Assembly (NCBI GenBank): GCA_038087875.1
Contig: CM075988.1
Span: 2,046,001-2,110,000 of the forward strand
Length of the DNA: 64,000 nt
Source: Malacoraja senta
Taxonomy: Eukaryota
Direction: 5' to 3'
The notes beneath the pieces are model-generated. The model saw only the letters and a list, made by a program, of their open reading frames with translations. It did not search any database and was not told the DNA's origin. Position numbers and translations under genes: made by a program. Positions 8,369 to 57,545 of the stretch are shown piece by piece (position 1 is the stretch's first letter; every line of letters begins with the position of its first letter).

Positions 8369-10385
8369 CATTTTTTATTTTTATTTTTTATTTAATTCTT
8401 TATTTTGAACAGAATAAAAGAATAAAAAGCAAGTGTGAAAGCATACAAAAAAACAAAACAAGAATATTTATAAAGTGTCATAAACAATATCTATAAATAA
8501 ATGAAATCGTATGTGTCTGAAAAGGAGCAGGAAGAAGCCAAAGCTTATTAATTCCCACCCCTTATTCAACTGCTTATAATTATCTTATGCAAATTTAGCA
8601 GCTATATGTACACCATATGTACACCAGCAGCTATATGTACCCCAAATTATTTACATTTATACACTAATCAAATATTTACAAAGCCACACAAAAAAAGAGA
8701 GAAAAAAAGAAAAAAGAAAAGAAAAAACCCTCATATACTATATCATTATCTCTTAGTCATATATACAACCCATCACCCTATAATCACCCTTCCCAATACA
8801 ATCAGTATAACAAATATCCCACTCACAATCACCTATCCCAATATCCTTTAAAAAAAAGTGTTTTTGTACATCTTCTTAAACTGAATTATGTTTGTGCTAA
8901 GTTGTATCTCCTGTTCCAGACCATTCCACAAATTCACCCCACAGATTGCTATGCACATACTTTTAAGAGTTGTTCTGACATTGAGTTTTTCTAAATTATG
9001 TTCCCCTCTCAAATTATACCCACCTTGTCTTTCCATAAACAGTTTTTGTATATTTCTTGGAAGTAAATTATTTCTTGCTTTGTACATGATTTGTGCAGTC
9101 TTAAATTTAACCAGATCGGTGAACTTCAGTGTATGTGACCTTAAGAATAATAAATTGGTATGTTCAAGATATCCAACGTTATTGATAATTCTTATTGCTC
9201 TTTTTTGTAATGTGCATAACGGCTGTAGGTTGGTTTTGTAGGCGTTACCCCATATCTCCACACAGTAACTCAGATATGGCAATATGAGTGTATTATACAG
9301 AGTATGTAATGATTTGTGGTCCAGAATGTGTCTTGATGTTCCCAATATTGCAATAGACTTTGCCAGTTTTGCTTTGATGTGGTTTATATGTGGTTTCCAG
9401 CAGATTTTGTGGTCTAAGATCACACCAAGAAATTTATATTCATATACTCTTTCTATATTTATGTTATCTATTTTCAATTGTACTTGAGGGTTTGTTTTAT
9501 GTTTTCCAAATAGCATCATCTTTGTTTTGCTTAAATTTAAAGACAATTTGTTGACATCAAACCACTGTTTTAATTTATTCATTTCTGATGTGATGACCTC
9601 CAAAAGCTGCTTCAAATTGTCACCGAAACAAAAAATATTCGTATCATCGGCAAATATAATCAATTTCAGTATATTTGATACTTTGCATATGTCGTTAATG
9701 TACATTATGAAAAGCTTTGGACCTAACACAGACCCTTGAGGTACTCCACAAGTTATGTTCATGTAAGTTGATTTATGTTCACCTATTTCTACAAATTGTT
9801 GCCTGTTTCTTAAATAGCTTCTCGCCCAATCCAATCCAACCCCTCTAAGGGACAGAAGTTTAGGGGTAACATGAGGGGGAACTTCTTTACTCAGAGAGTG
9901 GTGGCTGTGTGGAATGAGCTTGCAGTGAAGGTGGTGGAGGCAGGTTCGTTTTTATCATTTAAAAATAAATTGGATAGTTATATGGACGGGAAAGGAATGG
10001 AGGGTTATGGTCTGAGCGCAGGTATATGGGACTAGGGGAGAATACGTGTTCGGCACGGACTAGAAGGGTCGAGATGGCCTGTTTCCGTGCTGTAATTGTT
10101 ATATGGTTATATGGTTATATGCCAGACCTATCCAGTTTCATGAGTAAAATGTCGTGATTTACGGTATCAAATGCTTTTTTAAAGTCTATGAATATTCCCA
10201 CTGCAAGTTTTTTATTATCTATGCAATTTGTGATTTCCTCAATTAGTTCCATTAGTGCCATAGATGTTGATCTGTCTGTCCATATTGACTGTCGATCAAA
10301 AGCTTATGTTTTTCAATGAAATTGTCAAGTCTTTCTGTAAAAAGTTTTTCAAGGATCTTGGAGAATTGGGAGAGTAAAGAAACAT
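8369..10385 (-). mobile_element. L2/Crack-like LINE RT fragment with A-rich 3' UTR
   Basis: VSLLSQFSKILEK, GVPQGSVLGPKLF, FADDT, LNLSKTK, YCVEIWG; 328-aa ORF 8848-9834. Confidence 0.8.
9848..10120 (+). mobile_element. CR1 3' fragment nested in the L2/Crack-like element
   Basis: GNFFTQRVVAVWNEL; (ATGGTTAT)n tail; same subfamily as 54206-56203. Confidence 0.88.
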
Positions 10386-11543
10386 TTTGATACCATTCTT
10401 CTTCTGTTATTTGAATCTTTAATTCTGCTTCTTTTGTTTTTATGTAGAGCGTTGATTCTCCCCCGCTTCCCACCAGAGCTTGGTAGAAAGCAGAGATGAC
10501 CCGGGATCCCTTCTGTTTGTATGCATCCACAATCACCTTGATCACATTATTTGAAGTTTCATCTAGTTCTGGCCTTATCTCTTTTGTAAAGTAGTCTCTT
10601 AATTGCAAGTATCTAAAAAAATCTTTGTTTTCGAGACCGTACTTTGACTTTAAATCCTGGAAGCTCATAAACTCGCCATTTTCTGAAACTGTATACATTG
10701 CCGTTATGCCTTTTTGTGCCCATTCTTTGAATCTTGAATCATACACCCCTGGCTTAAACTTTGAGTCATATGCGAACCACTTCAATGTGTGAACCCCTCT
10801 TTTTAATTTGTATTTTTCCACTATAACATTCCATATTTCTAATGTAAATGCTACAATTGGATCCATAGCATGTCTCAAAGCCCCTCAGATATTTGTCTCC
10901 CACCAAAATCTGGGTCTGGTAACCCTGTATCTCCCTTTCCATTTCCTTCCATCGAGACTCATAATCAGGTCTACACCAACAAGCCAGAGGTCTGAGTTGA
11001 GCTGCATAAAAGTATTTCCTCAGATCTGGTAAAGCCATTCCACCCGTGCTTTTCGGCAGTTGAAGTGTTGTTAGTTTTATTCTTGTTTTTTTGCTATTCC
11101 AAATGAATCTAGAGATCATCTTATCCCAGGCTATGAATTTGTCTCGGGGAACATTAATTGGGAGAGATTGGAATAAATATAGTAGTTTAGGTAGGATATT
11201 CATTTTTACCGTTTGTATTCTGGCACTGAAGTCTAGAGGAAGGGTAGACCACCTTTCAACATCCTTTTTGATGTTTTCTTCAATTTTGTTATAATTAGTT
11301 TCAAACATGTTGGAAAGTGTTTTGGTTATAGTTGCACCAAGATACTGCATTGTTTTAGAATTCCATTTCAGATTATATGCATCTCTGATTTGTTGGGATG
11401 GAGAATCATTGAATGAAATAATTTGTGTTTTTGTTATATTCAGTTTATACCCCAAGTAGTATCCATATGTTTCAAATAGGCTCATTAGATTTGGGAGACA
11501 TATATCTGGTCGTTCAAGAAAAATAATGACATCATCAGCGAAT

Positions 11544-12305
11544 TTGTCCCCTATCCTCACTGATTGGGGTCGGTTGGTCAGGAAGTCGAGGATCCAGTTG
11601 TAAAGATGAGTGCTGATACCAAGTACTGCTAGTTTGGTGATAAATTTGGATGGTACAATGGTGTTAAAGGCGGAGCTGTAGTCTATGAATAGGAGTCTGA
11701 CGTAAGTGTCTCTCTTATCCAGGTGGTTCAGGGATGAGTGTAGGGCCAGGGCGATGGCATCGTCTGTGGACCTGTTGTGGTGGTTGGTGAACTGCAATGG
11801 GTCAAGGCCGCTGGATGGACTGGATTTAATACGTTCCATAACTAGCCTTGTAAAACATTTCACAATGGTGGATGTCAAGGCCACTGGGCAGTAGTTGTTT
11901 AGGCGTGAGGTCTTGCTTTTCTTCGGCACCGGGATGATAGTGACCTTCTTGAAGCAGGAGGGTACCTCAGAACCGAGTAGGGAGATTAAAGATGTCCGTG
12001 AATACTCCCCCTAGCTGCTAAGGACACGGCCAGGAACTACGTCTGGGCCAGTTGTTTTCCATGGGTTTACCCTCAGGAAGGCCGATCTAACATCTGCAAC
12101 AGTCACCCTGGAATGAGGCACACTGGAGTGTGAAGGGCCAGGTGTCACCACCCTGTTAGCCTTCTTCTCAAAGTGAGCATAGAAGGGCATAGAAAAGCAT
12201 TCAGTTAATTAGCTAGGGTTGCACTATCACCAGTGAAGTTGCCTGACCTTGCTCTGCAGCCTGTTATTTATTTCAGAACTTGCCACATTCTCCATGTGTC
12301 TGAGT
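11544..12305 (-). mobile_element. Rex1/Babar-like LINE RT fragment
   Basis: NNYCPVALTSTIVKCF, LDPLQF, RSTDDAI, YVRLLFIDYSSAFNTIVP, WILDFLTNRPQSVRIG. Confidence 0.85.
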
Positions 12306-12835: not shown

Positions 12836-15800
12836 ATAAGAAGGAACAGAAGGAAACAAAACGGGCAATATGGGCTGAAAAGATGAAGTACGAGGGGAAG
12901 CTGGCCAGGAATATAAAGAAGGACAGTAAAAGCTTCTTTAGATATGTTAAGGGGAAAAGAGTAGCAAAGTCAAATGTGGGTCCCTTGAAGGCAGACACGG
13001 GTGAAATTATTATGGGTAACAAGGAAATGGCAGAAGTGTTGAACAGGTACTTCGGATCTGTCTTCACTAAGGAAGACACAACCAATCTCCCAGATGTACT
13101 GGAGGACAGAGGATCTAAGGGGGTAGAGGAACTGAAAGAAATTCTCATTAGGCGAGAAATAGTATTGGGTAGGCTAATGGGACTGAAGGATGATAAATGC
13201 CCTGGGCCGGATGGTCGGCATCCCAGGGTCCTCAGGGAGGTGGCTCTAGAAATAGTGGACGCATTGGTGATCATTTTCAAATGTTCAATAGATTCAGGAT
13301 CAGTTCCTGTGGATTGGAGGATAGCTAATGTTATCCCACTTTTCAAGAAAGGAGCGAGAGAGAAAATGGGGAATTACAGACCAGTTTGCCTGACTTCGGT
13401 GGTGGGAAAAATGCTGGAGTCAATTATTAAAGAGGTAATAATGGGGTATTTGGATAGCAGTAAAAGGATTAGTCAAAGTCAACATGGATTTAAGAAAGGG
13501 TAATCATGCTTGACTTATCTTCTGGAATAATTTGAGGATGTGACAAGTAAAATGGATGAAGGCCAGCCAGTGGATGTAGTGTTTCAAGACTTTTAGAAAG
13601 CCTTTGATTAGGTCCCGCACGGGAGACTGGTGACTAAAATTAGAGCACATGGTATTGGGGGTAGGGTGTTGACATGGATAGAAAATTGGTTGGCAGAAAG
13701 GAAACAAAGAGTAGGAGTGAACGGGTCCTTTTCAGAATGGCAGGCAGTGGCGAGTGGAGTGCCGCAAGGCTCGGTGTTGGGGCTGCAACTGTTTACCATA
13801 TATATTAATGATTTGGAAGAGGGAATTAGGAACAACACTAGCAAGTTTGCGGATGATACAAAGCTGGGTAGCAGTGTGAACTGTGAAGAGGATGTTAGGA
13901 GGTTGCGGGGTGACCTGGATTGGTTGAGTGAGTGGGCAGATGCGTGGCAGAAGCAGTATAATATAGGTAAATGTGAGGTTATCCAATTTGGCGGCAAAAA
14001 CAAGGGGACAGATTATTATCTCAATGGGGTTAGGTTAGGTAAGGGGGAGGTGCAGCAAGATCTGGGTGTCCTTGTACACCAGTCACTGAAAGTTGGCGTG
14101 CAGGTACAGCAGGCAGTGAAGAAAGCTAATGGAATGTTGGCCTTCATAACAAGAGGATTTCAGTATAGGAGTAAAGAGGTTCTTCTACAATTGTATAGGG
14201 CTCTGGTAAGACCACATCTGAAGTATTGTGTACAGTTTTGGTCTCCTAATTTGAGGAAGGACATCGTTGTGATTGAGGCAGTGCAGCGTAGGTTCACGAG
14301 ATTGATCCCAGAGTACTTAAGGAAGTAGCTCCAGAAATAGTGGATGCATTAGTGATAATATTTCAAAACTCTTTAGATTCTGGAGTAGTTCCTGAGGATT
14401 GGAGGGTAGCAAACGTAACCACACATTTTAAGAAGGGAGGGAGAGAGAAAACGGGGAATTACAGACCAGTTAGTCTAACATCGGTAGTGGGGAAACTGCT
14501 AGAATCAGTTATTAAAGATGGGATAGCAGCACATTTGGAAAGTGGTGAAATCATTGGACAAAGTCAGCATGGATTTACGAAAGGTAAATTGTGTCTGACG
14601 AATCTTATAGAATTTTTCGAGGATGTAACTAGTAGAGTGGATAGGGGAGAACCAGTGGATGTGTTGTATCTGGACTTTCAGAAGGCTTTCGACAAGGTAC
14701 CACATAAGAGATTAGGATACAAACTTAAATCACACGGTATTGGGGGTTCAGTATTGATGTGGATAGAGAACTGGCTGGCAAACAGGAAGCAAAGAGTAGG
14801 AGTAAACGGGTTCTTTTCACAATGGCAGGCAGTGACTAGTGGGGTACCGCAAGGCTCAGTGCTGGGACCCCAGCTATTTACAATTTATATTAATGAACTG
14901 GATGAGGGAATTGAAAGCAACATCTCCAAGTTTGCGGATGACACTAAGCTGGGGGGCAGTGTTAGCTGTGAGGAGGATGCTAGGAGACTGCAAGGTGACT
15001 TGGATAGGCTGGGTGAGTGGGCAAATGTTTGGCAGATGCAGTATAATGTGGATAAATGTGAGGTTATCCACTTTGGTGGCAAAAACGGGAAGGCAGACTA
15101 TTATCTAAATGGTGGCCGATTAGGAAATGGGGAGATGCAGCGAGACCTGGGTGTCATGGTACACCAGTCATTGAAAGTAGGCATGCAGGTGCAGCAGGCA
15201 GTGAAGAAAGCGAATGGTATGTTGGCCTTCATAGCAAGAGGATTTGAGTATAGGAGCAGGGAGGTTCTACTGCAGTTGTACAGGGTCTTGGTGAGACCAC
15301 ACCTGGAGTATTGCGTACAGTTTTGGTCTCCAAATCTGAGGAAGGACATTATAGCCATAGAGGGAGTGCAGAGAAGGTTCACCAGACTGATTCCTGGGAT
15401 GTCAGGACTTTCATATGAAGAAAGACTGGATAGACTTGGCTTATACTCGCTAGAATTTAGGAGATTGAGAGGGAATCTTATAGAAACGTACAAAATTCTT
15501 ATGGGGTTGGACAGGCTAGATGCAGGAAGATTGTTCCCGATGTTGGGGAAGTCCAGGACAAGGGGTCACAGCTTAAGGATAAGGGGGAAATCCTTTAAGA
15601 CCGAGATGAGGAAACACTTTTTCACACAGAGAGTGGTGAATCTCTGGAACTCTCTGCCACAGAGGGTAGTTGAGGCCAGTTCATTGGCTATATTTAAGAG
15701 GGAGTTAGATGTGGCCCTTGTGGCTAAGGGGATCAGGGGGTATGGAGAGAAGACAGGTACGGGATACTGAGTTGGATGATCAGCCATGATCATATTGAAT

Positions 15801-18647: not shown

Positions 18648-19027
18648 TAACCTATTGGCTAGATCACCCTGGATCCCATGTGATCTAACCATCCAGACCA
18701 GCCTACCATGTGGAACCTTGGCAAAGACATTGCTAAGGTCCATGTGGGCAATGTCTGCCACACTGTCATCATCAATCTTCTTGCGCATCTCCTCAAAGGC
18801 CACTTGTCAGACACCAGCCTCCCTCCCAGTAGATCACCACTTGCCCTCCCAGCTGGAGACGAGCCCACCCACCCCTCATGGACATCCTCCAACACATCTC
18901 CCCTGATAGATACCACCTCTCTCACCCCACCGCTGGTGGCCCAGATACTCTGCTGGAGACGTCTCCTGATACCCAGCCCCGCTGTGGTCCTGCCCCCGCC
19001 ACACAGCCCTCCTGTCCAATCACTCAC

Positions 19028-19283
19028 CTGTCCGGAGTAGAGAGGTATTTCTGTTTCTGGAATTTCTTCTCCAGACCCATGAGCTGCAGTTCGGTGAAAA
19101 TGGTGCGGCATCTCCGGGGCTTCTTAAACCGAGGTACAGCCCGATCGCTGTTGTTCTCGGTGCTGGTACTCTCCAGAGCTAATAAGCCAGTGGTGCTGGA
19201 GGACAGAAACTGTGGAATCCTTGTAGTGGGAACTGGAGACAGCTGCGTCAAAGCCAACGATGGGTATGAGCTCAATGCTGACC
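19028..19283 (-). CDS. BARX2: BARX2 exon 2 (N-terminal part of the homeodomain)
   Basis: ctacag|GG TCA GCA TTG ... GAC AG|gtgagt; encodes GSALSSYP...[33 protein letters not shown]; phase matches exon 1; KKPRR/TIF/KKFQK fit BARX2 rather than BARX1. Confidence 0.95.
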
Positions 19284-19725: not shown

Positions 19726-20414
19726 TGAGAAAAAATTCTGACCCTCTGACACTGGGGGATCATGACTGTTATAGGCTGCAGCTTTCTTAAACATATCTTT
19801 AAATTAAGTCCCAATTTTGCTGGTCTGGAACAGTTAGATTTTGCCGAAACACTTCTGCTCAAAAACTGCAATATCCCGCAAAACAAATCTACATTTACAT
19901 AGCACTGTTGCAGTGTTAGGGCATTTCAGTGATTAAGGCCAGTGAAGTCGTCATAATCATAGAGCACAGAAACAGATCCGTGTGGCTCAACTCATCCATG
20001 CCGACCATGATGTCCCATCTGAGCTCATCCCATTTGCCTGTGCCTGGCCCATATCCTTCAAAACCATTCCTATCTATGTGCCTGTCCAAATGTCCTTTAC
20101 ATGTTGTTATTGTACCTGCCTCAACTACATCATCTGGCAGTTTGTTCTATATAGCCAACATGCCCAAAACCTTCCTCACTATCCTTTTGGCCTGTGCTGC
20201 CTTTTTATGGAACTATGGACATACTCTTAGATCACTCTGCTCTGCAACACTCCCTAGGCCCCGCTGTTCCCGGTGAAAATCCTGCCTTGATTAGACTTCC
20301 CAAGATGCAACACAGAGGGTGATGGATGGGGAGATGATAATGGAGATAGTAGCAGAGAGAGGGAGAATGTAGGAATGTCATACAGAGGAGCAGAAAAATG
20401 GAGTACACAATATC

Positions 20415-20558
20415 TTCTTCTTCTTCTTCTTTTGTGTGGCGTGCACAGCCTAAAGTTGTTGGACAACTTGTTCTATTTGATCTTCCGTTTGTGCACGTCG
20501 AGTTGATTGCATTAGTCGAAACAGGGCAGACCACGTGAAGGTTGCAATCTTCCACCCC
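20415..20558 (-). mobile_element. 144-bp non-autonomous retroposon: 5' HDV-like ribozyme, stem-loop, (GAA)n tail
   Basis: Perfect 14-bp TSD GAGTACACAATATC at 20401-20414 and 20559-20572; (AAG)n tail. Confidence 0.9.
20505..20558 (-). ncRNA. Predicted minimal HDV/CPEB3-like self-cleaving ribozyme
   Basis: GGGGTGG-AA-GATTGCA-ACC-TTCACGT-GGT-CTGCCCT-GT-TTCGA-CTAA-TGCAATC fits P1/P2/P3/L3/J4-2; activity untested. Confidence 0.8.
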
Positions 20559-20758
20559 GAGTACACAATATCCATTGATTTTCTCTCATCTATTCTGCCT
20601 GTTGCAACCTAAAATCTCCAGCATGCTACTCAGACATAATATCCCTTCTGGAAACCCTTATTGAATTTGCTAATCCCATTGATATTTTCTGAGTGTTTTG
20701 TTGTCTCATTGTTTATATTGGCTCGGGCATTTCTTCACGAGAGTCAGAGATGTGTGCA

Positions 20759-37710: not shown

Positions 37711-38414
37711 ACACACAATACTCCAGGTGTGCTCACAACCCGAGCACATGGGAGTTACTATTCAGGATGGACATGAGAAGAAATGTCTTCACCCAAAGTG
37801 TTGAGCCTGTGGACCTCTCCATCACAGGATGCCATTGAAACCAAACACAATTTAAGACGAAGTTTGGTGCTAATGGTGAAAGAGATGAGGGGATACCGGC
37901 AGCGATAAGGAACACATTTGTATGATTAGTACTGACTTGTAGGGCAGACTCAAAGACTGAATGGCTTCATCCTGTTGCCACTGAGAACTGGTGTGTAGAA
38001 CTCTATTATGTTGCACTGGTCGGTGTTTTTGACTACAGGACACTGTCACACTGCTTGGGACTGGAGCGCTCCATGGCACCGCGCTCTGGATGTCGCCGGT
38101 CAGTGATAGAGCAGAGTGTCGCCACACTGGTGAGGGGTGTGAGACACTGGACAGTGGTTGACACTGGAGACAGACACTGGTCAGTGCACACACTGCGTTG
38201 GGCTCCGCGCGTCCCTGGCGCACGGCTATACCAAGCTCCCGGGACCTCTATCAAAGCGCCAAGTGCCGGAGTGGCTCTGTGCTGCCTGCCGGAGTTGACT
38301 GGGAGTGAGCGGGTGGAAGTTGAACCTGCTGCCCGGCTGGGCTGTCCCGTCCCGGGGGTCCCCCGCACCCGCAGCGCCCGGCGCGACCGAGAGGGGAGCG
38401 AGCAGCGCGCGTAC

Positions 38415-38559
38415 CGGCACAGGAGCGCAGCGGCAGCGGGCGGGTCAACGAGCCGCTCTCCCTCCACAGGATCTCCTCGATCATGAAGGTCTTGTAGCGC
38501 CGGCTGCTCGGCTGCTGCAGCCCCGGCACGAAGAGCCTCGGCGCGGCGGGACACTGCAT
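38415..38559 (-). CDS. BARX2: BARX2 exon 1 (48 codons + 1 nt; eh1-like motif FMIEEIL)
   Basis: MQCPAAPRLFVPGLQQPSSRRYKTFMIEEIL...RPLPLRSCA G|gtacgc; resembles the BARX2 N-terminus (RRYKTFMIDEIL, RPKPLHSC); splices in frame to exon 2. Confidence 0.92.
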
Positions 38560-38681: not shown

Positions 38682-39804
38682 GCCCATAGCCGCCTCACCG
38701 GCACCACCGGGCAGCGAGGGGGGGGAGGGGTGGGAGAGAGGGGGGGGGGGGTGAGGGAGGGGGCTGGGTGAGAGTCAGGGGTGGCGGCTACACTTACTGA
38801 GGGACTGGGTAATGGAGAGAGGGGGGGCACGGCTGATGGGTGAGGGTGCTGGTGTTGGGGTGTGGGGTGCTGGCCACACTTGCTGAGGGGGTATCCCAAT
38901 TTCCTGGGGGATCAGGACATTTGAGGTTGGGTGTGAGAGCCACATGACTGTGTGCTGGTCTGAACTGTTCAACGCTAGTGAGGACTGGGGAGAGGATGGG
39001 AGGACACCACTCATCTGCTGGGTTGGGGAGATAAACAGGACTGCAGCTGGGATGAGTTCTCTCGAGCCTGTAAACTAGGAGACTGATGCGTGAAACGCGC
39101 AGCCACCGCTATGAGGTCCAGGATCCACCGGTAAATGGGAGAACGGTCCTGGAGCCGAGATCTATTTATGAATAGGAGATGGGTCCAGCTGAAGCTGCTT
39201 TAGTGTCCGTGAATGTACTGATATGAAAATATTCCAGCTCCCATTGTCTTCAACTGGAGTCATGTGGCTCCCAATCATCTTGAAACTGTTGCAAATAATC
39301 TACCTGTGGCTGCAAAAAGTTGTAAACGCTGCCCAGGCCATCATCGGCTCTGACCTCCCCACCATAGAAGGGATCTATCGAAGTCGCTGCCTCAAAGGCA
39401 GCCAACATCATCAAAGACCCACACACCATCCTGGCCACACACTCATCTCACCACTGAAGAAGGTAGAAACATAGAAACATAGAAACATAGAAAGTAGGTG
39501 CGAGAGTAGACCACCAGGTCCATCGAGCCCGCACCGCCATTCGCTCATGGCTGAACACTAAACAGACACCCTTACCCACAAACAGTAGACACAAGACACA
39601 GAACACAAGACACTACCCTCCCCTTTATATCGCTATCACCCCTCTCCACCCCAAGAACCACGTGATCTCCTGGGGGAGGCAAAAAACCGGATAAAAACCC
39701 AGGTCCAATTCGGGAAAAAAATCCGGGAAATTCCTCTCCGACCCCAATCCAGGCGATCGACACTTGTCCAGGAGATCACTCAGGTCTTACTATACTAACC
39801 ATAC

Positions 39805-42699
39805 CTAGGTCCATATCCCTGCCCTCTCCCCGTAGCCCCTTTTCCCCTTGGCAGCTAAAAAACCATCTATTTTAGACTTAAATATATTTAATGTTTCTGC
39901 TTCCACTGCTCCCTGGGGCAGTGAATTCCATAAATTAACCACCCTCTGGGTGAAGAAGTTCTTCCTCATCTCAGTTTTAAAAGAGCCCCCTCTTATTCTA
40001 CAACTATGTCCCCTAGTTCTAGTTTCCCCGATCATTGGGAACATCCTCGGTGCATCCACCCGATCAAGGCCCCTCACGATCTTATATGTTTCAATAAGAT
40101 CGCCTCTCATTCTTCTAAACTCCAAAGAGTAGAGTTCCAGCCTACTTAACCTTTCCTCATATGTCAATCCCCTCATTGCAGGAATTAATCTTGTAAACCT
40201 TCGCTGCACTGCCTCCAGGGCCAGTACATCCTTTCTTAAGTATGGACCCCAGAACTGTACACAGTATTCCAAATGTGGTCTCACTAATACTGTGTACAGC
40301 TGCAGCAAGACCTCCGTGTTTTTATACTCAATCCCCCTAGCAATAAAGGCCAAAACTCCATTGGCCTTCCTGATTGCTTGCTGCACCTGCATACTAACTT
40401 TTAGTGATTCATGTACTACTACCCCTAGATCCCTTTGCGTTGCATTACAACGCAGCTCCACCTCATTTAGAAAATAACTTGCCCTATCATGTTTTTTCCC
40501 AAAGTGAATGACTTCACATTTATTAGTATTAAATTTCATCTGCCAAGTTGTTGCCCACTCACCTAGCTTATCTATATCCTTTTGCAGACTCTTCCTATCC
40601 TCCTCATCCCCTACTTTTCCTCCCATTTTTGTATCGTCCGCAAATTTTGATATATTACACTTGGTTCCCTCCTCCAAATCATTTATATAAATTGTGAACA
40701 ACTGGGGTCCCAGCACCGACCCTTGCGGAACCCCGCTAGTTACCGGTTGCCATCCCGAGTATGAACCATTTATCCCCACTCTCTGCTTCCTATTTGTTAG
40801 CCAATCCTCTACCCATGCTAATATATTACCCCCAATCCCATAATTTTTTATTTTTAGCAATAGTCTCTTATGTGGCACCTTGTCAAAAGCCTTTTGGAAG
40901 TCCAAGTATACCACATCCACCGGTTCCCCTTTATCCACCCGGGTTGTTACTTCCTCAAAGAATTCGAGCAGATTCGTTAAACAGGACTTCCCCTTCACAA
41001 AACCATGCTGGTTCTGTCCGATGAAGTCATGTTTATCCAAGTGCCCCGTTAGTGTTTCTTTAATAATTGTCTCTAACATTTTACCCACCACCGATGTTAG
41101 ACTAACCGGTCTATAGTTACCCGCCTTCTGTTTACTTCCTTTTTTAAATATAGGTGTTACATTGGCCATTTTCCAATCCACTGGGACCGTTCCTGCCTCC
41201 AGGGAGTTTTGGAAAATTATCACCAATGCATCCACAATCCCCACCGCTATCTCCCTCAAGACCCTTGGATGTAATCCATCAGGCCCAGGGGATTTATCCT
41301 CCTTCAGTCTCATTAATTTCCCTAATACCACCTCCTTGGTGATCTTAATAGTATTTAGCTCCTCCATTCCTACCGCCCCCTGTTTATCCAGCGTTGGAAT
41401 ATTTTTTGTGTCTTCTATGGTGAAGACTGATACAAAATACTCGTTTAATGCCTTTGCCATTTCCATGTTCCCCACCAACAACTCTCCAGTCTCACCCTCC
41501 AATGGACCAACGTTCACCTTAGCCACCCTTTTTCTTTTTATATAGCTATAAAAACTCTTACTATTAGTTTTTATGTTGTTCGCTAAATTCCTTTCATAGT
41601 CTATTTTCCCCGTCTTAATTAATCTCTTAGTTATTTTTTGCTGACCTTTAAATGCTTCCCAATCCTCTACCCTCCCACTATCTCTAGCTACCTTATATGC
41701 CCTTGCCTTCAACCGAATACTATCCTTTATAGTTTTACTGAGCCATGGCTGACTGTTCTTTCCCTTACCCCTTTTTTTCTTCATAGGAATAAATTTTTCT
41801 TGAAGGTTATACAGTAGATCCTTAAACGTACACCACTGCTCATGTACCGTCTTATTCTTGAGTCTGCTATCCCAGTCAACTTTGATCAGCTCAGTCCTCA
41901 TACCTTCATAATCCCCTTTATTTAGACTAAGTACCCTAGCCTGAGTTTCAACCTGCTCCCCTTCTATTTGAATATGGAATTCGACCATATTGTGGTCACT
42001 TGTTCCCAACGAGTCCCTAACTATGACATTTTTAATTAATCCTGCTTCATTACACAGGACCAGATCCAAGATTGCCTCCCTCCTTGTCGGTTCTGTGACA
42101 TACTGTTCTAGGAACCCGTCTCTAATACATTCTATAAACTCTTCCTCTAGTCTACCCTGCCCAGTTTGGTTTGCCCAATTAATATGAAAATTGAAGTCCC
42201 CCATGATTACAGCAGTTCCCTTTTTACATGCGTCAACTATTTGCAGATTTATGTTCTGACTAACAGCGTCACAGCTATTTGGAGGTCTATAAATTACACC
42301 CACTAGTGTTTTTTTCCCCTTGTTATTCTCTATCTGTACCCAAGCTGTTTCACTATCCTGATCCTTCAACGCAATATCCTTCCTCTCTATTGCCGTTATT
42401 CCCTCCCTTATTAAAAGGGCCACCCCTCCTCCCTTTCTTTCCTGTCTATCTTTTCTAATTGTCGAGTACCCCTCTATATTTAACTCCCAATCCTGATCCC
42501 CTTGCAGCCATGTCTCCGTAATGGCCACGATATCATAACTATATGTACTTAATTGCACCGTTAATTCATTTATCTTATTTCGAATACTCCGTGCATTTAG
42601 ATACAGCACTTTCAGATGATTTTTACTACCCTTCCTTTCTGTTTTTGCCCCTTTTACATCTAGAGCTTTATCTTCACACATTCTGGATCCTCCTGTCAC
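39805..42699 (-). CDS. CR1 ORF2 (APE endonuclease + reverse transcriptase), 964 aa
   Basis: YLNARS, ITETW, MGDFN, SDH, GVPQGSVLGP and FADD motifs with no stops. Confidence 0.95.
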   Translation of the reverse strand: MTGGSRMCEDKALDVKGAKTERKGSKNHLKVLYLNARSIRNKINELTVQLSTYSYDIVAITETWLQGDQDWELNIEGYSTIRKDRQERKGGGVALLIREGITAIERKDIALKDQDSETAWVQIENNKGKKTLVGVIYRPPNSCDAVSQNINLQIVDACKKGTAVIMGDFNFHINWANQTGQGRLEEEFIECIRDGFLEQYVTEPTRREAILDLVLCNEAGLIKNVIVRDSLGTSDHNMVEFHIQIEGEQVETQARVLSLNKGDYEGMRTELIKVDWDSRLKNKTVHEQWCTFKDLLYNLQEKFIPMKKKRGKGKNSQPWLSKTIKDSIRLKARAYKVARDSGRVEDWEAFKGQQKITKRLIKTGKIDYERNLANNIKTNSKSFYSYIKRKRVAKVNVGPLEGETGELLVGNMEMAKALNEYFVSVFTIEDTKNIPTLDKQGAVGMEELNTIKITKEVVLGKLMRLKEDKSPGPDGLHPRVLREIAVGIVDALVIIFQNSLEAGTVPVDWKMANVTPIFKKGSKQKAGNYRPVSLTSVVGKMLETIIKETLTGHLDKHDFIGQNQHGFVKGKSCLTNLLEFFEEVTTRVDKGEPVDVVYLDFQKAFDKVPHKRLLLKIKNYGIGGNILAWVEDWLTNRKQRVGINGSYSGWQPVTSGVPQGSVLGPQLFTIYINDLEEGTKCNISKFADDTKMGGKVGDEEDRKSLQKDIDKLGEWATTWQMKFNTNKCEVIHFGKKHDRASYFLNEVELRCNATQRDLGVVVHESLKVSMQVQQAIRKANGVLAFIARGIEYKNTEVLLQLYTVLVRPHLEYCVQFWGPYLRKDVLALEAVQRRFTRLIPAMRGLTYEERLSRLELYSLEFRRMRGDLIETYKIVRGLDRVDAPRMFPMIGETRTRGHSCRIRGGSFKTEMRKNFFTQRVVNLWNSLPQGAVEAETLNIFKSKIDGFLAAKGKRGYGERAGIWT

Positions 42700-42788
42700 A
42701 TTTTGATTTTCCGTTTCCCCACTGATACCCTGCTCTATTTCCTCTACCCCTGCCGTTATTACCCCCCTTGATACCTCCCCCCCGCTAC

Positions 42789-43742
42789 TTAGTTTAAAGA
42801 CCTCTCTACTGCCCTAGTTATATGATTTGCCAGGACCCCATTCCCAGCACCGTTCAGGTGAAGTCCGTCCTTACAGAACAGATCCCCCCTGTCCCAGTAC
42901 TGGTGCCAGTGGCCCAAGAAACCAAACCCATTTTTCCCACACCAGTCTTTGAGCCACGCATTCAGCTTTTTAATTTTTCGTACCCTCGCCGATTTGGCCC
43001 GTGGCTCAGGTAGCAATCCGGAGATCAGTACCCTCGAGGTTCTGCTTTTTAATTTATTCCCTAACTGCTCAAACTCGTTCAGCAGATCCTCCTTCCTCGT
43101 CCTTCCTATGTCATTGGTCCCCACATGGACCACGACCACTGGATCCTCCCCCTCACTCTGCAAATTTCTCTCCAGCATCGCAGAGATATCCTTAACCCTA
43201 GCACCGGGTAGGCAACACAGCCTTCGGGACATGTTCTGCTGGCCGCAGAGAACCTTATCTACCCCCCGAATAATACTATCCCCTATCACCACGGCATTTC
43301 TTCTAACTTCCCCCTCTTGAATGGCCCCCTGATCCACGGTGCTGCAGCCAGGTTGCTCATCCCTCCCACAGCCCCTGATCCCGTCCTCACATTGAGTAAG
43401 AGCCTCGGTCATGCTCGTCAGGGACAAGGGCTGTGGCTCCTGCCGCATCTCCTCCTGGTTCCCCCTACCTGCCTCGCTTATGGCCACACCTTCCGTTCCC
43501 TGCTCACTAACTACTGAATTAGTTAAACTGGTCGGTGTGACCATCCCCTGGCACAAAACATCCAGGTAATACTCCCCCTCCCTGATGCACCGCAGCGTAT
43601 GAAGTTGGGTCTCCAGCTCATCAATGCGGAGCTCGAGTTCCGCTAGCTTCAAACACTTACTGCAGCTGTAGGGATCATCTACATCAATGGTGTCGACAAT
43701 TTCCCACATCTCACAGTATTGGCACATCTCCTGGCCGCCCAT
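42789..43742 (-). CDS. CR1 ORF1 (zinc finger, leucine zipper, SGNH esterase-like), 317 aa
   Basis: CQYC..CSKC, heptad LAELELRIDELETQL, IGDSII, HVGTND, DGLHLN. Confidence 0.93.
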   Translation of the reverse strand: MGGQEMCQYCEMWEIVDTIDVDDPYSCSKCLKLAELELRIDELETQLHTLRCIREGEYYLDVLCQGMVTPTSLTNSVVSEQGTEGVAISEAGRGNQEEMRQEPQPLSLTSMTEALTQCEDGIRGCGRDEQPGCSTVDQGAIQEGEVRRNAVVIGDSIIRGVDKVLCGQQNMSRRLCCLPGARVKDISAMLERNLQSEGEDPVVVVHVGTNDIGRTRKEDLLNEFEQLGNKLKSRTSRVLISGLLPEPRAKSARVRKIKKLNAWLKDWCGKNGFGFLGHWHQYWDRGDLFCKDGLHLNGAGNGVLANHITRAVERSLN

Positions 43743-44069
43743 CTTATATAAGTAATTAACTGGTCCTATTAAGAATCCCCTACCAGGATTACTGTATTAA
43801 AACACCCCTTATTTATATAATCCTACCTCCTATAAATGGGAAAGTACTTACCCCAGCCGTAAATTACCTACTGGTTTGGCTGTCTAGTGGTAATTCCGTC
43901 CGCTCTTTCTGTCTGGTCCACTGCTCCCTTGCAGTGCGTGGCCTACCTCTTAGCCCCTGTTAGCCTCTCGAGCCGCGGCTCCGTCCTTCCTCCCTCGGCG
44001 ACAACCCTGGGCCGCACCTGTGGCACCTGTGGCACCGCGGTCGTGACGTCCCTTCCGTTCCAACTGCCA

Positions 44070-54205: not shown

Positions 54206-56203
54206 ATATAACCATATAACCATATAACCATTACAGCACAGAAACAGGCCATCTCGGCCCTTCAAGTCCGCGCCGAACATTAAAAAAAATATATATATAT
54301 ACTTCCCCCTACTCCCATCTACCTGCACTCAGACCATAACCCTCCATTCCTTTCCCGTCCATATACCCATCCAATCTATTTTTAAAGGATAAAATCGAAC
54401 CAGCCTCCACCACTTCCACTGGAAGCTCATTCCACACAGCTACCACTCTCTGAGTAAAGAAGTTCCCCCTAATGTTACCCCTAAACTTCTGTCCCTTAAT
54501 TCTCAAGTAATGTCCCCTTGTTTGAATCTTCCCTACTCTCAATGGTAAAAGCTTATCCACGTCAACTCTGTCTAACCCGCTCATAATTTTAAAGACCTCT
54601 ATCAAGTCCCCTCTTAACCTTCTGCGCTCCAAAGAATAAAGACCTAACTTGTTCAACCTTTCTCTGTAACTTAGTTGCTGAAACCCAGGCAACATTCTAG
54701 TAAATCTCCTCTGTACTCTCTCTATTTTGTTGACATCCTTCCTATAATTAGGCGACCAAAATTGTACTCCATACTCCAGAATTGGCCTCACCAATGCCTT
54801 GTACAATTTTAACATTACATCCCAACTTCTATATTCAATGCACTGATTTATAAAGGCCAGCACACCAAAAGCTTTCTTTACCACCCTATCTACATGAGAT
54901 TCCACCTTCAGTGAACTATGTACAGTTATTCCTAGATCCCTCAGTTCAACTGCATTCCTCAATTTTCTACCATTTACCATGTACGTCCTATTTTGATTTG
55001 TCCTGCCGAGATGTAGTACCTCACATTTATCAGCATTAAACTCCATCTGCCATCTTTCAGCCCACTCTTCCAAATGGCCTAAATCTCTCTGTAGACTTTG
55101 AAAATCTACTTCATTATCCACCACACCACCTATCTTAGTATCATCTGCATACTTACTAATCCAATTTTCCACACCATCATCCAGATCATTGATGTACATG
55201 ACAAACAACAGTGGACCCAACACAGACCCCTGAGGCACCCCACTAGTCACCGGCCTCCAACCTGACAAACAGCCATCCACCATTACTCTCTGGCATCTCC
55301 CATTCAGCCACTGTTGAATCCATCTTGCTACTCCACCATTAATACCCAACAATTTAATCTTCTTAACCAACCTTCCATGAGGAACCTTGTCAAAGGCCTT
55401 ACTGAAGTCCATATAGACAACATCCACTGCTTTACCCTCATCAATTTCCCTAGTAACCTCTTCGAAAAATTCTAGAAGATTAGTCAAACATGACCTTCCA
55501 GGCACAAATCCATGTTGACTGTTCCTAATCAGACCCTGCTTATCCAGATGCTTATATATATTATCTCTAAGTATCCTTTCCATTAATTTGCCCACAACTG
55601 ATGTCAAACTAACAGGTCTATAATTGCTAGGTTTACTCTTCGAACCCTTTTTAAACAACAGAACAACATGCGCAGTACGCCAATCCTCCGGCACTATTCC
55701 CTTTCTAATGACATTTGAAATATTTCTGTCATAGCCCCTGCTATTTCTACACTAACTTCCCTCAATGTCCTCGGGAATATCCTGTCAGGACCTGGAGACT
55801 TATCCGTTTTCATATTTTTCAAAAGTGTCCGCACCTCCTCTTCTTTGAATCTCATAGTTTCCATTGCTACTCTGCTTGTTTCCCTTACCTCACATAATTC
55901 CATATCCTTCTCCTTGGTGAATACCGAAGAAAATAAATTGTTCAATATCTCCCCCATCTCTTTTGGCTCTGCAGATAGCTGTCCACTCTGACTCTCTAAT
56001 GGACCAATTTTATTCCTTGTTATCCTTTTGCTATTAATATAACTGTAGAAACCCTTTGGATTTACTTTCACCTTACTTGCCAAAGCAACCTCATATCTTC
56101 TTTTAGCTTTTCTAATTTCTTTCTTAATATTCTTTTTACATTCTTTATACTCCTCAAGCACCTGATTTACTCCATGCTGCCTATAATTATTGTAGATCTG
56201 TAT
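54206..56203 (-). mobile_element. Young 5'-truncated CR1 in the Gypsy integrase region
   Basis: Open 461-aa RT frame 54309-55694 with YADD; (ATATGGTT)n tail. Confidence 0.92.
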
Positions 56204-57545
56204 TGTATTGTTGGCACGTATGTACTTGGTCATACCAGGCCAGTAAAACATGCTCTGTGCCCGTTGTAACGTTGCCTCCACGACGGGGTGGCCCCTGTTG
56301 AAGACGTCAAAGTACTTGTCCCGGAGGACAGCTGGGACAAATGCCTTGTGGCCCTTAACTATAATCCCGTCCTGCAACACCAGTTCGTCACGAACCAGGA
56401 AGTATGGGCGGATTGTGAGCGGGGTGCTGTGTTGTTTATCCGGCCAGCCTCGCCGGATGACCACGGACAGCAATTGTAAAGTCACGTCAGCAGCCGTGTG
56501 CTCTGCCAGGCTACTTAGGCAATCAGTAGGAACATACGATACCTTCATTACTGAGAACTGGTCCTGTTCAGAGGGCTGTTGTTTGCTGGTTTTGCATGGG
56601 GCCCTTGATAGCGTGTCAGCTATGTGCATGTCCTTGCCGTTTTTGTAGACAATGTTGAAATCGAAACGCTGCAGCTGCATCATCATCCATTGCAGGCGAG
56701 CCAGAGCAGCGTGAATGGGTTTATTCAAGATGGTGACCAGCCATCAGCCAGCCATTCAAGATGGTGACCAGTTTCTATAGTCACAGACTTCCCAAAAATA
56801 AAGTCTTTGAATTTTGTGCAGGTATAAACCATTGCAAGCAATTATTTTTCAATCTGGGCGTAACATTGTTCAGTATCGGTTAGAGTGCGAGAGGCATATG
56901 AAACAGGCTTGCAGTTGCCATTGGTAGTGGTCTGCAAGCAAGCAGCGCCAAGTTCGTACTGGGACGCATCACATGTGAGTGTTACTGGTAACTCCAAAGC
57001 GAAATAGGCAAGGGTAGGTGCGCTGCCCAGCTGTAACTTGAGGATATCAAAAGCTCTTTGGTGCTGCAGATACCAAGACCATGCAGCGTCTTTGTGTGTC
57101 AGTTCGATCGCTGAGGTTGGGAATAAATTTCCTCAGGGTAGTTGACCATTCCAAGGAACCTTTGTAGACTCTTAACGTCAGTAGGAAACGGCATCTCGTT
57201 GATAGCAACAGTTTTTGTTGGGTCTGGTCTGAGACCATCACTTGTGAAAACATGTCCGACATAGGTAATTTCCGGGAACCGGAACTTGCACTTCAGGGGA
57301 TTGAGTTTAAGCTGAATGTCTTTGGCATGGTCCAACACCCTCTTCAGATTGGCTTCATGCTCAGCCAAGTCGCGCCTGTAGACGAGAATGTCATCAACAA
57401 TGATGGCGCATGGATACCCCGCAAACAGTTGTTCCATCGTGCGCTGAAAAACCTCGCTGGCAGAGTTGATGCCAAATGGCATTCTCAGGAATTTGTAATG
57501 GCCGAAGGGGGTACCGAACATAGTAAGGTTGAACAAGTCTTGGTC

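What the first reader, a model, noticed from the sequence alone, without database searches (positions are those of the whole stretch)
20401..20572. 144-bp retroposon that starts exactly at a minimal HDV/CPEB3-like ribozyme
Seen: a perfect 14-bp TSD brackets a minus-strand insert reading GGGGTGG AA GATTGCA ACC TTCACGT GGT CTGCCCT GT TTCGA CTAA TGCAATC. This is followed by a stem CGTGCACA/TGTGCACG enclosing a hairpin AAGTTGT/ACAACTT, then a (GAA)n tail. The first 54 nt map onto the HDV double pseudoknot: 7-bp P1 opening with a G.U wobble (three G.U pairs in total), 7-bp P2, 3-bp P3, L3 UUCACGU, almost no P4, and J4/2 CUAA with the candidate catalytic C. Established: UUCACGU is, as I recall, the CPEB3 ribozyme L3, and HDV-like ribozymes form the 5' ends of R2, RTE and L1Tc/ingi elements. 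Inference: this is a promoter-less SINE-like family that is cut out of read-through transcripts and mobilised by an Ingi/Vingi- or RTE-type LINE. It is sense to BARX2, so an active copy would cleave intron 1 of the pre-mRNA.
Basis: partly seen in the sequence, partly recalled or inferred. Interest (0 to 1): 0.9.

Follow-up and report, generated by a model that had tools for sequence, protein, structure and literature searches.

The report
Ribozyme-headed SINE of an RTE LINE
A 144-base mobile-element copy, one of about 7,000 in this genome, begins with a 54-base fold of the hepatitis-delta/CPEB3 self-cutting RNA type and most likely uses it to cut itself out of host transcripts before an RTE-type element copies it.

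Summary
Minus strand 20558-20415 is a 144-nt TSD-flanked retroposon ending in (GAA)5, and its first 54 nt fit an HDV-like double pseudoknot.

It belongs to a young family: 6,861 exact hits to a 17-mer of the fold. Copies start at the same G, with unrelated flanks and 10-15-bp TSDs.

Rfam support for this copy alone is weak (14.2 bits). Support from relatives in the same genome is strong:
- Six related elements start with the same fold: an older subfamily, a 205-nt SINE with a full P4, a second P4-less SINE and two RTE-type LINE families.
- Their P1, P2 and P3 sequences differ but still pair. Ten of 17 pairs change on both sides between the two P4-less families.
- Several relatives pass Rfam's gathering score for the CPEB3 ribozyme (37-64 bits, cut-off 35).
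- One RTE LINE carries the same (GAA)n tail.

The copy lies sense in intron 1 of a BARX-like gene.

Catalysis is untested. The one raw RNA-seq run showed read-through and no pile-up of 5' ends. HDV-like ribozymes heading RTE elements are already known. A P4-less form in a vertebrate SINE, and CPEB3-class ribozymes on retroelements of an apparently non-mammalian genome, look new.

The parts
20559..20572 (-). 5' copy of the target-site duplication (GATATTGTGTACTC), directly abutting the first G of the element
20505..20558 (-). 54-nt P4-less HDV/CPEB3-like fold. Predicted cleavage is 5' of the G at 20558.
20552..20558 (-). P1 5' strand. It pairs with 20523-20529: G.U, three G-C, U.G, G.U, G-C.
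20543..20549 (-). P2 5' strand. It pairs with 20505-20511 (7 Watson-Crick pairs) and forms the pseudoknot.
20530..20542 (-). P3 (3 bp) closing L3 UUCACGU. L3 is invariant across the aligned P4-less copies and identical to the Rfam CPEB3 consensus.
20523..20529 (-). P1 3' strand. Position 20528 is T here and C in 17 of 30 fetched copies of this subfamily (a CpG transition that keeps the pair as G.U).
20512..20522 (-). J1/4 (GU), a 5-nt linker in place of P4, and J4/2 (CUAA) with the candidate catalytic C at 20515. The C and the two A are invariant in alignment A2.
20505..20511 (-). P2 3' strand
20440..20497 (-). 3' domain: an 8-bp stem (20497-20490 with 20447-20440) enclosing a 7-bp hairpin (20469-20453). 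Probably the part seen by the reverse transcriptase (inference).
20415..20439 (-). Pre-tail motif and (GAA)5 tail. Most fetched copies of this subfamily read ACGAAA before the repeat; this copy reads ACAAAA.
20401..20414 (-). 3' copy of the target-site duplication
38400..38559 (-). Context: first coding exon of a BARX-like homeobox gene (the translation holds RRYKTFMIEEIL). Limits are approximate.
   Evidence: weak Atlas hit to BARH1/Engrailed fragments
19027..19220 (-). Context: next coding exon of the same gene (start of the homeodomain, ..[27 protein letters not shown], then a stop in frame). The element lies about 1.2 kb upstream of it in the intron. Limits are approximate.

Best explanation
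The insert is a full-length copy of a non-autonomous, promoter-less non-LTR retroposon (a SINE in the broad sense). Its first 54 nt are a minimal, P4-less ribozyme of the HDV/CPEB3 class.

Proposed mechanism:
1. A source copy is transcribed as part of a longer host transcript.
2. The ribozyme cleaves 5' of its first G and releases an RNA that starts exactly at that G.
3. The reverse transcriptase of an RTE-type LINE with a (GAA)n tail copies this RNA by target-primed reverse transcription. This leaves the (GAA)n tail and a 10-15-bp target-site duplication.

Shown: the anatomy, the family, the precise shared 5' end, the covarying fold in six related elements, and the existence of RTE LINEs with the same kind of 5' fold and tail.

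Inferred: the cleavage itself, co-transcription as the source of the RNA, and which RTE family mobilises this SINE.

The window copy differs from the majority sequence of the 30 fetched copies at two CpG sites and keeps all 17 pairs. It could therefore still cleave BARX-like intron 1 RNA, in which it lies in sense.
For: Family and ends:
- 1,933 first-look candidates; all 40 scored are 98-100% identical.
- 6,861 exact hits to a 17-mer of the fold, against 2 for the reversed control.
- 28 of 30 fetched copies start with the same 7 bases.
- 32 of 46 A-lineage copies have a strict 10-15-bp TSD abutting the first G. Upstream information content is at most 0.19 bit.

Fold:
- One descriptor hit in the window, at the element's first base, against 1 per 40 Mb of random sequence.
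- Standard pairs in family A: 206 of 210 cells in P1, 209 of 210 in P2, 89 of 90 in P3. Slid partners give 1-71% across helices and slides of 1-3 positions.

Covariation:
- Gapless alignment of the two P4-less families: 96.7% of cells paired and 10 of 17 pairs changed on both sides. None of 500 shuffles reached the covariation score. Slid controls gave 35-50% paired and 0-2 such pairs.
- Against the 205-nt SINE B, 2 pairs of P1 and 4 of P2 change on both sides.
- Both RTE LINE families carry further helix sets.
- L3, J1/4 and the C and two A of J4/2 are invariant in alignment A2.

Other support:
- Relatives pass Rfam's curated CPEB3 cut-off: 39 of 60 listed matches in the genome, best 64.2 bits. 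Fetched copies score 61.3, 59.7, 47.7, 45.8 and 37.0 bits.
- Between the two A subfamilies the fold differs at 2 of 54 positions, both unpaired. The body differs at 12 of 77 (Fisher p 0.042).
- RTE-1 LINE: APE and RT domains, a 986-aa open frame, a 15-nt 3' UTR followed by (GAA)n, and an HDV-like 5' end at 21-27 bits on RF00094.
Against: - No cleavage was measured.
- In the only raw RNA run (poly(A), coded organism I, about 6% of the run read), 408 reads lay on the element and no place qualified as one where many molecules begin or end. 123 reads ran on past 20558, and 12 more diverged from 20553, into heterogeneous flanks. My estimate of local depth from the run's binned depth table is about 158. 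Most poly(A) RNA copies are therefore uncleaved, or the cleaved ones are lost.
- This copy and its family fall far below Rfam thresholds: 14.2 bits against 44. RF00622 was not listed at E up to 10.
- The nested fold of the whole element is no more stable than shuffles (z 0.23).
- P4 is absent.
- The second base of J4/2 varies (U, G or A).
- The pre-tail motif of this SINE (ACGAAA/ACGCAA) differs from the RTE-1 3' end. The 3' end of the second RTE family was not seen.
Confidence: 0.8

Rival explanations
1. The conserved double-pseudoknot is real but no longer cuts, at least in the P4-less form. It serves instead as a protein-binding or translation/RT-recruiting structure. The sharp 5' end then comes from a transcription start or from another nuclease.
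For: - No 5'-end pile-up, and abundant read-through, in the raw RNA run.
- Loss of P4 and weak Rfam scores for this family.
- The review passage read states that the 5' pseudoknot of R2 also binds R2 protein.
Against: - The candidate catalytic C and L3 are invariant while the helices covary. This is what catalysis demands, not mere binding.
- No tRNA-like head was found.
- Two unrelated primary sequences (A and B) start at the same structural position.
- P4-less HDV-like ribozymes are described in the passage read.
Confidence: 0.13
2. The family is ribozyme-headed, but this copy is an inert relic. Cleavage matters only in a few source copies, and the copy in the BARX-like intron has no effect on the host gene.
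For: - Copies decay neutrally after insertion. This copy already carries two CpG transitions.
- Read-through RNAs of many copies exist.
Against: All 17 pairs and all invariant unpaired bases are intact in this copy. This reading does not conflict with the main explanation of what the element is.
Confidence: 0.5
3. A chance HDV-like motif in an ordinary 5'-truncated LINE tail or SINE.
For: Rfam E-value 2.8 for this copy alone. The fold energy is not exceptional.
Against: - The descriptor's random frequency is 1 per 40 Mb, and the hit sits at the element's first base.
- The same architecture heads six related elements, with compensatory changes.
- Relatives exceed Rfam's curated cut-off.
Confidence: 0.01

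Closest known systems
HDV-like ribozymes at the 5' ends of non-LTR retrotransposons (R2, RTE, baggins, L1Tc)
   Same: - A double-pseudoknot ribozyme forms the first bases of a promoter-less element.
- It is proposed to free the element RNA from a co-transcript.
- RTE association is confirmed here.
Basis in print: passages of the review PMC6765202 read. Ruminski et al. 2011 is recalled and cited there; its text was not held.
   Different: Here the element is a 144-nt non-coding SINE in a vertebrate with about 7,000 copies, and the ribozyme lacks P4.
Non-autonomous elements that keep the LINE's 5' ribozyme: R2 SIDEs and T. cruzi NARTc
   Same: Short ORF-less elements headed by an HDV-like ribozyme and mobilised in trans. 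For PMC3414825, PMC3383444 and PMC4035085 I saw the search listings and abstracts. For SIDEs I also read the review passage.
   Different: - SIDEs are internal deletions of R2 and insert in rDNA. This SINE shares neither helix sequences nor body with the RTE LINEs I found, and it is dispersed.
- NARTc also carries an internal promoter (Pr77).
Mammalian CPEB3 ribozyme (Rfam RF00622)
   Same: Identical L3 (UUCACGU), J1/4 (GU) and J4/2 type (CGAA in the older A subfamily), and an intronic sense position. Relatives in this genome score 37-64 bits against a cut-off of 35.
   Different: - This copy does not reach any reported score on RF00622.
- It has no P4 and different P1, P2 and P3 sequences.
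- It is a multi-copy retroposon, not a single conserved intronic locus.
Minimal P4-less HDV-like ribozymes (metagenomic drz-Mtgn type, phage theta ribozymes)
   Same: About 50-55 nt, with P4 replaced by a short linker (passages of PMC10879173 read).
   Different: That paper reports nearly 99% of minimal and theta forms confined to bacteriophages, next to tRNAs. Here the form is in a vertebrate genome, at the 5' end of SINEs.
Twister-variant ribozymes in Schistosoma mansoni non-LTR elements; hammerhead-bearing SINEs and retrozymes
   Same: Self-cleaving RNA as part of the life cycle of LINE/SINE pairs (PMC8501958: search listing and abstract only).
   Different: A different ribozyme class and a different position logic.

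Membership tests
HDV-like (delta) ribozymes | Nested double pseudoknot: P1 and P2 interleaved, with P3 inside P1 | tested here: met
   All 17 pairs are standard in this copy. 96.7% of cells pair across the two P4-less families.
HDV-like (delta) ribozymes | Helices supported by covariation | tested here: met
   10 of 17 pairs change on both sides between A and D. Six more change between A and B. The number of independent lineages is small, about seven.
HDV-like (delta) ribozymes | G.U wobble at the cleavage site and a cytosine in J4/2 | tested here: met
   G at 20558 pairs with U at 20523. C at 20515 is invariant in A2. Family D lacks the G.U position.
HDV-like (delta) ribozymes | P4 helix | tested here: not met
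   A 5-nt linker stands in its place. P4 is not essential in the described minimal forms (passage read).
HDV-like (delta) ribozymes | P1.1 between L3 and J1/4 | not tested
   L3 and J1/4 equal the CPEB3 consensus. I did not evaluate the pairing.
HDV-like (delta) ribozymes | Rfam gathering score | tested here: not met
   This copy: RF02682 14.2 bits against 44. No other delta-family model was listed at E up to 10. Relatives: RF00622 37-64 bits against 35; RF02682 36.7 against 44; RF00094 21-27 against 50.
HDV-like (delta) ribozymes | Site-specific self-cleavage | not testable with these tools
   The one raw RNA run showed no start pile-up at 20558. This gives no support and is not decisive.
LINE-dependent non-autonomous retroposon (SINE in the broad sense) | Short and non-coding, with TSDs, a LINE-type 3' tail and many dispersed copies | tested here: met
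LINE-dependent non-autonomous retroposon (SINE in the broad sense) | Partner LINE with a matching 3' end | tested here: inconclusive
   The RTE-1 LINE ends in (GAA)n. Its last 8 bases before the repeat recur in SINE D, but not in this SINE. The 3' end of RTE-2 was not seen.
Classical SINE | Pol III head derived from tRNA, 7SL or 5S | tested here: not met
   ARAGORN found none, and no Rfam hit of that kind was listed.
RTE clade (for the partner LINE) | About 3.2 kb, a single ORF of about 1,000 aa with N-terminal APE and RT, and a very short 3' UTR with a simple-repeat tail | tested here: met
   Relatives of 960-995 aa sit on 3.0-3.6 kb contigs from many animals. I made no clade tree.

The most novel reading that the evidence does not exclude
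This genome keeps a living radiation of CPEB3-class ribozymes as the 5' heads of RTE LINEs and their SINEs, including P4-less 53-54-nt forms.

Two consequences would follow. The single-copy mammalian CPEB3 ribozyme would be an exapted head of such an RTE/SINE insertion. And minimal delta ribozymes, so far reported almost only from phages, would have an independent eukaryotic origin through loss of P4 in SINEs.
Probability: 0.4. Interest if true: 0.85.

Novelty: new variant of a known kind. Interest (0 to 1): 0.7.

Why it matters
HDV-like ribozymes are known to process RTE, R2 and L1Tc elements. Three points here go beyond what I found in print.

1. **P4-less forms in a vertebrate.** Two families carry a P4-less 54-nt form that heads thousands of SINE copies. 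The paper read places nearly 99% of minimal forms in bacteriophages and calls their origin and function open.

2. **CPEB3-class ribozymes on active retroelements.** Ribozymes that pass Rfam's curated cut-off for the "mammalian CPEB3 ribozyme" sit on active-looking RTE LINEs and SINEs of what looks like a non-mammalian vertebrate. [quoted passage not shown] These elements could supply outgroups and an origin.

3. **A natural mutagenesis series.** About 7,000 near-identical copies scattered through introns allow study of how an intronic self-cleaver affects host transcripts.

My four targeted searches of the held library found no paper on such SINEs in fishes or other vertebrates. Subscription journals, Repbase and the Ruminski 2011 text were not available.

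Tried and rejected
**Partner LINE by tail motif.** Patterns for ACGCAA(GAA)n in every upstream context other than the two SINE lineages gave 198, 136 and 49 hits. Almost all listed rows were variants of the same SINEs.

**Other pattern searches that found only mutated SINE copies:**
- A third ribozyme with the ACC..GGU core and another P1: 66 hits.
- Body or ribozyme followed by foreign sequence.

**Candidates examined and dropped:**
- L082-L084: another repeat with an internal (GAA)n.
- About 80 identical 5'-truncated copies inside a larger amplified unit.
- Ten ribozyme hits without the 3' 17-mer: ordinary mutated copies.
- The intact LINE in the window at 39808-43796: CR1/L2-like, with an (ATGTTTCT)n tail.
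- The abundant LINE with a 1,271-aa ORF: it has an A-rich tail.
- Two recurrent (GAA)n contexts: one is poly-Glu coding sequence, the other an internal run that looks coding.

**RNA evidence.** One poly(A) raw-read run plus three contig runs gave no 5'-end pile-up at 20558 and many reads running through. This neither supports nor excludes cleavage. Strand was not split for the loose ends, only about 6% of the run was read, cleaved RNA may be unstable, and contigs cannot show ends.

**Other dead ends:**
- Earlier notes of this scan held nothing on this genome or sequence. The word search returned only unrelated negatives from other genomes.
- The literal L3 string was in no held paper, so I confirmed it from the Rfam consensus instead.
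- MAFFT could not align the P4-less and P4-bearing forms in register (A1). I therefore counted P2 across those families by script.
- The Atlas look-up for the BARX-like exon was weak.

Full report
**What is at the coordinates.** On the minus strand, 20558 to 20415 is a 144-nt insert.
- It is bracketed by GATATTGTGTACTC at 20572-20559 and 20414-20401. The first two bases could belong to the tail, so the duplication is 12-14 bp.
- The insert ends in (GAA)5.
P1 has 7 bp and opens with G.U. P2 has 7 bp and makes the pseudoknot. P3 has 3 bp and closes L3 (UUCACGU). The bases GU follow P1, a 5-nt linker stands where P4 would be, and CUAA precedes the 3' strand of P2.

**Is it more than chance?** Taken alone, the copy is weakly supported.
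- Rfam at gathering thresholds finds nothing in the window.
- In E-value mode, RF02682 aligns end to end to exactly 20558-20505, but at 14.2 bits (E 2.8, gathering score 44).
- The nested fold of the whole element is no more stable than shuffles (z 0.23).
- A descriptor of my own says otherwise. It requires a 7-bp P1 with G.U, a 7-bp P2, a 3-bp Watson-Crick P3, a 7-nt L3 and J4/2 of the form CNRA. It hit the window once on both strands, at these coordinates, and once in 40 Mb of dinucleotide-matched random sequence.
- The hit starts at the first base after the target-site duplication.

**The family (A).** The window's own assembly is 1.94 Gb.
- It gave 1,933 first-look candidates. All 40 scored were 98-100% identical over at least 139 of 144 nt.
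- A 17-mer of the fold has 6,861 exact hits, against 2 for the reversed control. A 17-mer of the body has 5,128. Ten fold-only places that I fetched were ordinary copies with a mutated body motif.
- Of 30 fetched loci, 28 start with the same seven bases and 2 have a changed first or second base.
- A strict test found a 10-15-bp duplication abutting the first G in 32 of 46 A-lineage copies. The ten upstream positions carry at most 0.19 bit. T precedes the element in 22 of 46.
- The window copy differs from the majority of the 30 fetched copies at two CpG sites. One of them turns a G-C pair of P1 into G.U.

**Relatives with the same head.**
- *A' (older subfamily).* At least 1,371 candidates, 95-96% identical to the query copy. 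It has the same fold, with CGAA or CAAA in J4/2.
- *SINE B.* Searching the genome with RF02682 found a 205-nt SINE: 5 matches among 62 scored, best 36.7 bits, below the cut-off of 44. It has at least 841 candidates, and scored copies are 91-95% identical to the query copy. A complete HDV-like fold with P4 begins at its first base. It ends in ACGCAA(GAA)n, and 16 of 27 copies have strict TSDs.
- *RF00622 (CPEB3 ribozyme) hits.* This search gave 60 listed matches, 39 of them over the gathering score of 35, best 64.2 bits. I fetched 15 of them.
 - The 84-nt hits head a second RTE-like LINE family. Nine ribozyme hits pair with a weaker (46-49% identity) protein match. In eight of the nine pairs, the first G of the ribozyme lies 1.12-1.18 kb upstream of the start of that match.
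 - The 61-65-nt hits are a second P4-less SINE (D). Two copies show TSDs abutting its first G.
 - Further forms are L122, L124-L126 and L132.
- On the fetched copies, cmscan gave 61.3, 59.7, 47.7, 45.8 and 37.0 bits. It also printed the CPEB3 consensus. That consensus confirms that UUCACGU, the GU after P1 and CGAA are CPEB3 features.

**Covariation.**
- *Within families, nearly all cells pair.* A: 206 of 210 in P1, 209 of 210 in P2, 89 of 90 in P3. A': 118 of 119, 119 of 119, 51 of 51. B: 194 of 203, 228 of 238, 102 of 102. Slid partners give 0-73%.
- *Between A and B.* P1 positions 5-7 read U.G, G-C, G-C against C-G, U-A, C-G. Four of the seven P2 pairs change on both sides.
- *Between A and D.* These align without a gap. 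I gave DNA alignment 10 of the 52 A, A' and D copies in hand and left out L131, which has a 1-nt deletion.
 - On that alignment, 96.7% of 153 cells pair and 10 of 17 pairs change on both sides, including two of the three P3 pairs.
 - None of 500 shuffles reached the covariation score.
 - Partners slid by 1-3 columns give 35-50% pairing and 0-2 such pairs.
 - L3, GU, and the C and two A of J4/2 are invariant.
- *The two RTE LINEs* add two more sets of P1 and P2 sequences.
- *Between the A and A' majority sequences,* the fold differs at 2 of 54 positions, both unpaired. The body differs at 12 of 77 (p 0.042).
- *Caveat.* The number of independent lineages is about seven, and each change is counted once per lineage.

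**The partner LINE.** After several failed pattern searches, a scan of sequences preceding (GAA)5 showed a recurrent context. It proved to be the end of an ORF with an RTE-like C-terminus (the clade motif is recalled, not tested).
- The family (RTE-1) has at least 2,782 candidates.
- The stop codon is followed by a 15-nt 3' UTR, GATTGCAACGGACTC, and then (GAA)n.
- One copy has a 986-aa open frame.
- Pfam finds the endonuclease domain in the N-terminal 364 aa and RVT_1 in the C-terminal 675 aa.
- Relatives are 960-995-aa proteins on 3.0-3.6-kb contigs from many animals.
- Of 22 matches to its first 301 nt, 13 reach within 9 nt of the 5' end. I fetched 12 of these. Together with the query copy they show unrelated upstream DNA (L113 and L114 are one duplicated locus) and a common start at a P1-like strand. 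The first base of that start varies (A in 4 copies, G in at least 4).
- RF00094 aligns there at 21.0-27.3 bits in 4 of the 4 LINE loci given, with a cut-off of 50.
- Its P3 and L3 are those of SINE B.
- SINE D ends with the same 8 bases as this LINE before the repeat. SINE A and SINE B instead read ACGAAA or ACGCAA.
- I could not reach the 3' end of RTE-2, so which RTE family mobilises the window's SINE is open.

**RNA evidence.** Twenty-four runs were listed, 23 of them holding part of the stretch, from nine coded organisms.
- The only raw RNA run was poly(A), and about 6% of it was read. It laid 408 reads on the element in both directions, with first mates on the plus and minus strands at roughly 1:2.
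- No place qualified as one where many molecules begin or end.
- 123 reads ran on past 20558, and 12 more diverged from 20553, into heterogeneous sequence. My estimate of local depth there is about 158.
- So most poly(A) RNA that holds the element is uncleaved, antisense or genomic.
- This gives no support for cleavage in vivo. It is not decisive either: loose ends were not split by strand, and cleaved RNA may be lost.

**Host context.**
- A BARX-type first coding exon lies at about 38.5 kb on the minus strand.
- The exon encoding the start of the homeodomain lies at about 19.1 kb on the minus strand.
- No other such exon was found between them. The element therefore sits in sense in intron 1, about 1.2 kb upstream of exon 2.
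- Calling the gene BARX2 rather than BARX1 rests on my recall of the homeodomain sequence.

**Known and new.**
- The review passages read state three things. HDV-like ribozymes occur in RTEs and baggins elements that lack promoters. R2 SIDEs are ribozyme-headed non-autonomous elements. Some SINEs use hammerhead or HDV-like ribozymes. The mechanism is therefore of a known kind.
- The P4-less form in a vertebrate SINE appears new. The paper read places nearly 99% of minimal forms in phages.
- CPEB3-class ribozymes above the curated cut-off on retroelements of a genome that looks non-mammalian also appear new. [quoted passage not shown]
- The non-mammalian guess rests on genome size, the repeat content, and RTE relatives in teleosts at 85-90% identity. 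It was not tested.
- My four targeted searches found no paper on such SINEs. Ruminski et al. 2011 was not held, and Repbase and Dfam were not available.

**Verdict.** Catalysis and the in vivo role remain to be shown.

Noticed in passing
own genome; loci L119-L133 (e.g. L121:125-208, L122:128-216, L126:49-118, L130:244-306): Rfam's model of the mammalian CPEB3 ribozyme has 39 of 60 listed matches over its gathering score in this genome, best 64.2 bits. They head a second RTE-like LINE family and several short SINE-like families. This may bear on the origin of the CPEB3 ribozyme.
   Followed up: partly
L104:3777-3803 and L106:199-225, against window 20540-20551 region of older-subfamily copies (e.g. 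L074:47-58): The stop codon and 3' UTR of the RTE-1 LINE share an 11-nt identity (GAGATTGCAAC) with the J1/2-P2-P3 stretch of the older SINE subfamily. By rough count I expect well under 0.001 such matches by chance. The meaning is unknown.
   Followed up: no
proteins P0001, P0002: The RTE-1 protein is 85-90% identical to proteins annotated in two teleosts, an eel and a cyprinid. All other relatives are about 50% identical. This pattern is compatible with horizontal transfer of the RTE.
   Followed up: no
window 39808-43796 (-), tail near 39470-39500: An apparently intact CR1/L2-like LINE. ORF1 (335 aa) has a GDSL-esterase domain, ORF2 (1,002 aa) has endonuclease and RT domains, and the tail is (ATGTTTCT)n.
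   Followed up: partly
unplaced contigs, e.g. C2327, C962, C588, C517; L085-L087: A 5'-truncated RTE-1 copy recurs every 10.2 kb in tandem arrays on small contigs. About 80 identical 5'-truncated copies of the older SINE subfamily sit in another amplified unit.
   Followed up: partly
flanks of SINE and LINE copies: T is enriched at the base just upstream of the element: 22 of 46 for SINE A, 13 of 27 for B, 4 of 5 for D, and about 7 of 12 distinct RTE-1 loci. This probably reflects a target-site preference.
   Followed up: no
own genome, e.g. L098 (C2:44048500-44050300): An L1-like LINE with a 1,271-aa ORF and an A-rich tail is present in many copies with identical RT scores, so it is probably recently active.
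   Followed up: no
window 8851-12010 (-), 13612-15767 (+), 54312-56743 (-), 58849-59844 (+): Further reverse-transcriptase ORFs (one next to an integrase zinc-binding domain) show that the window is dense in other retroelements.
   Followed up: no
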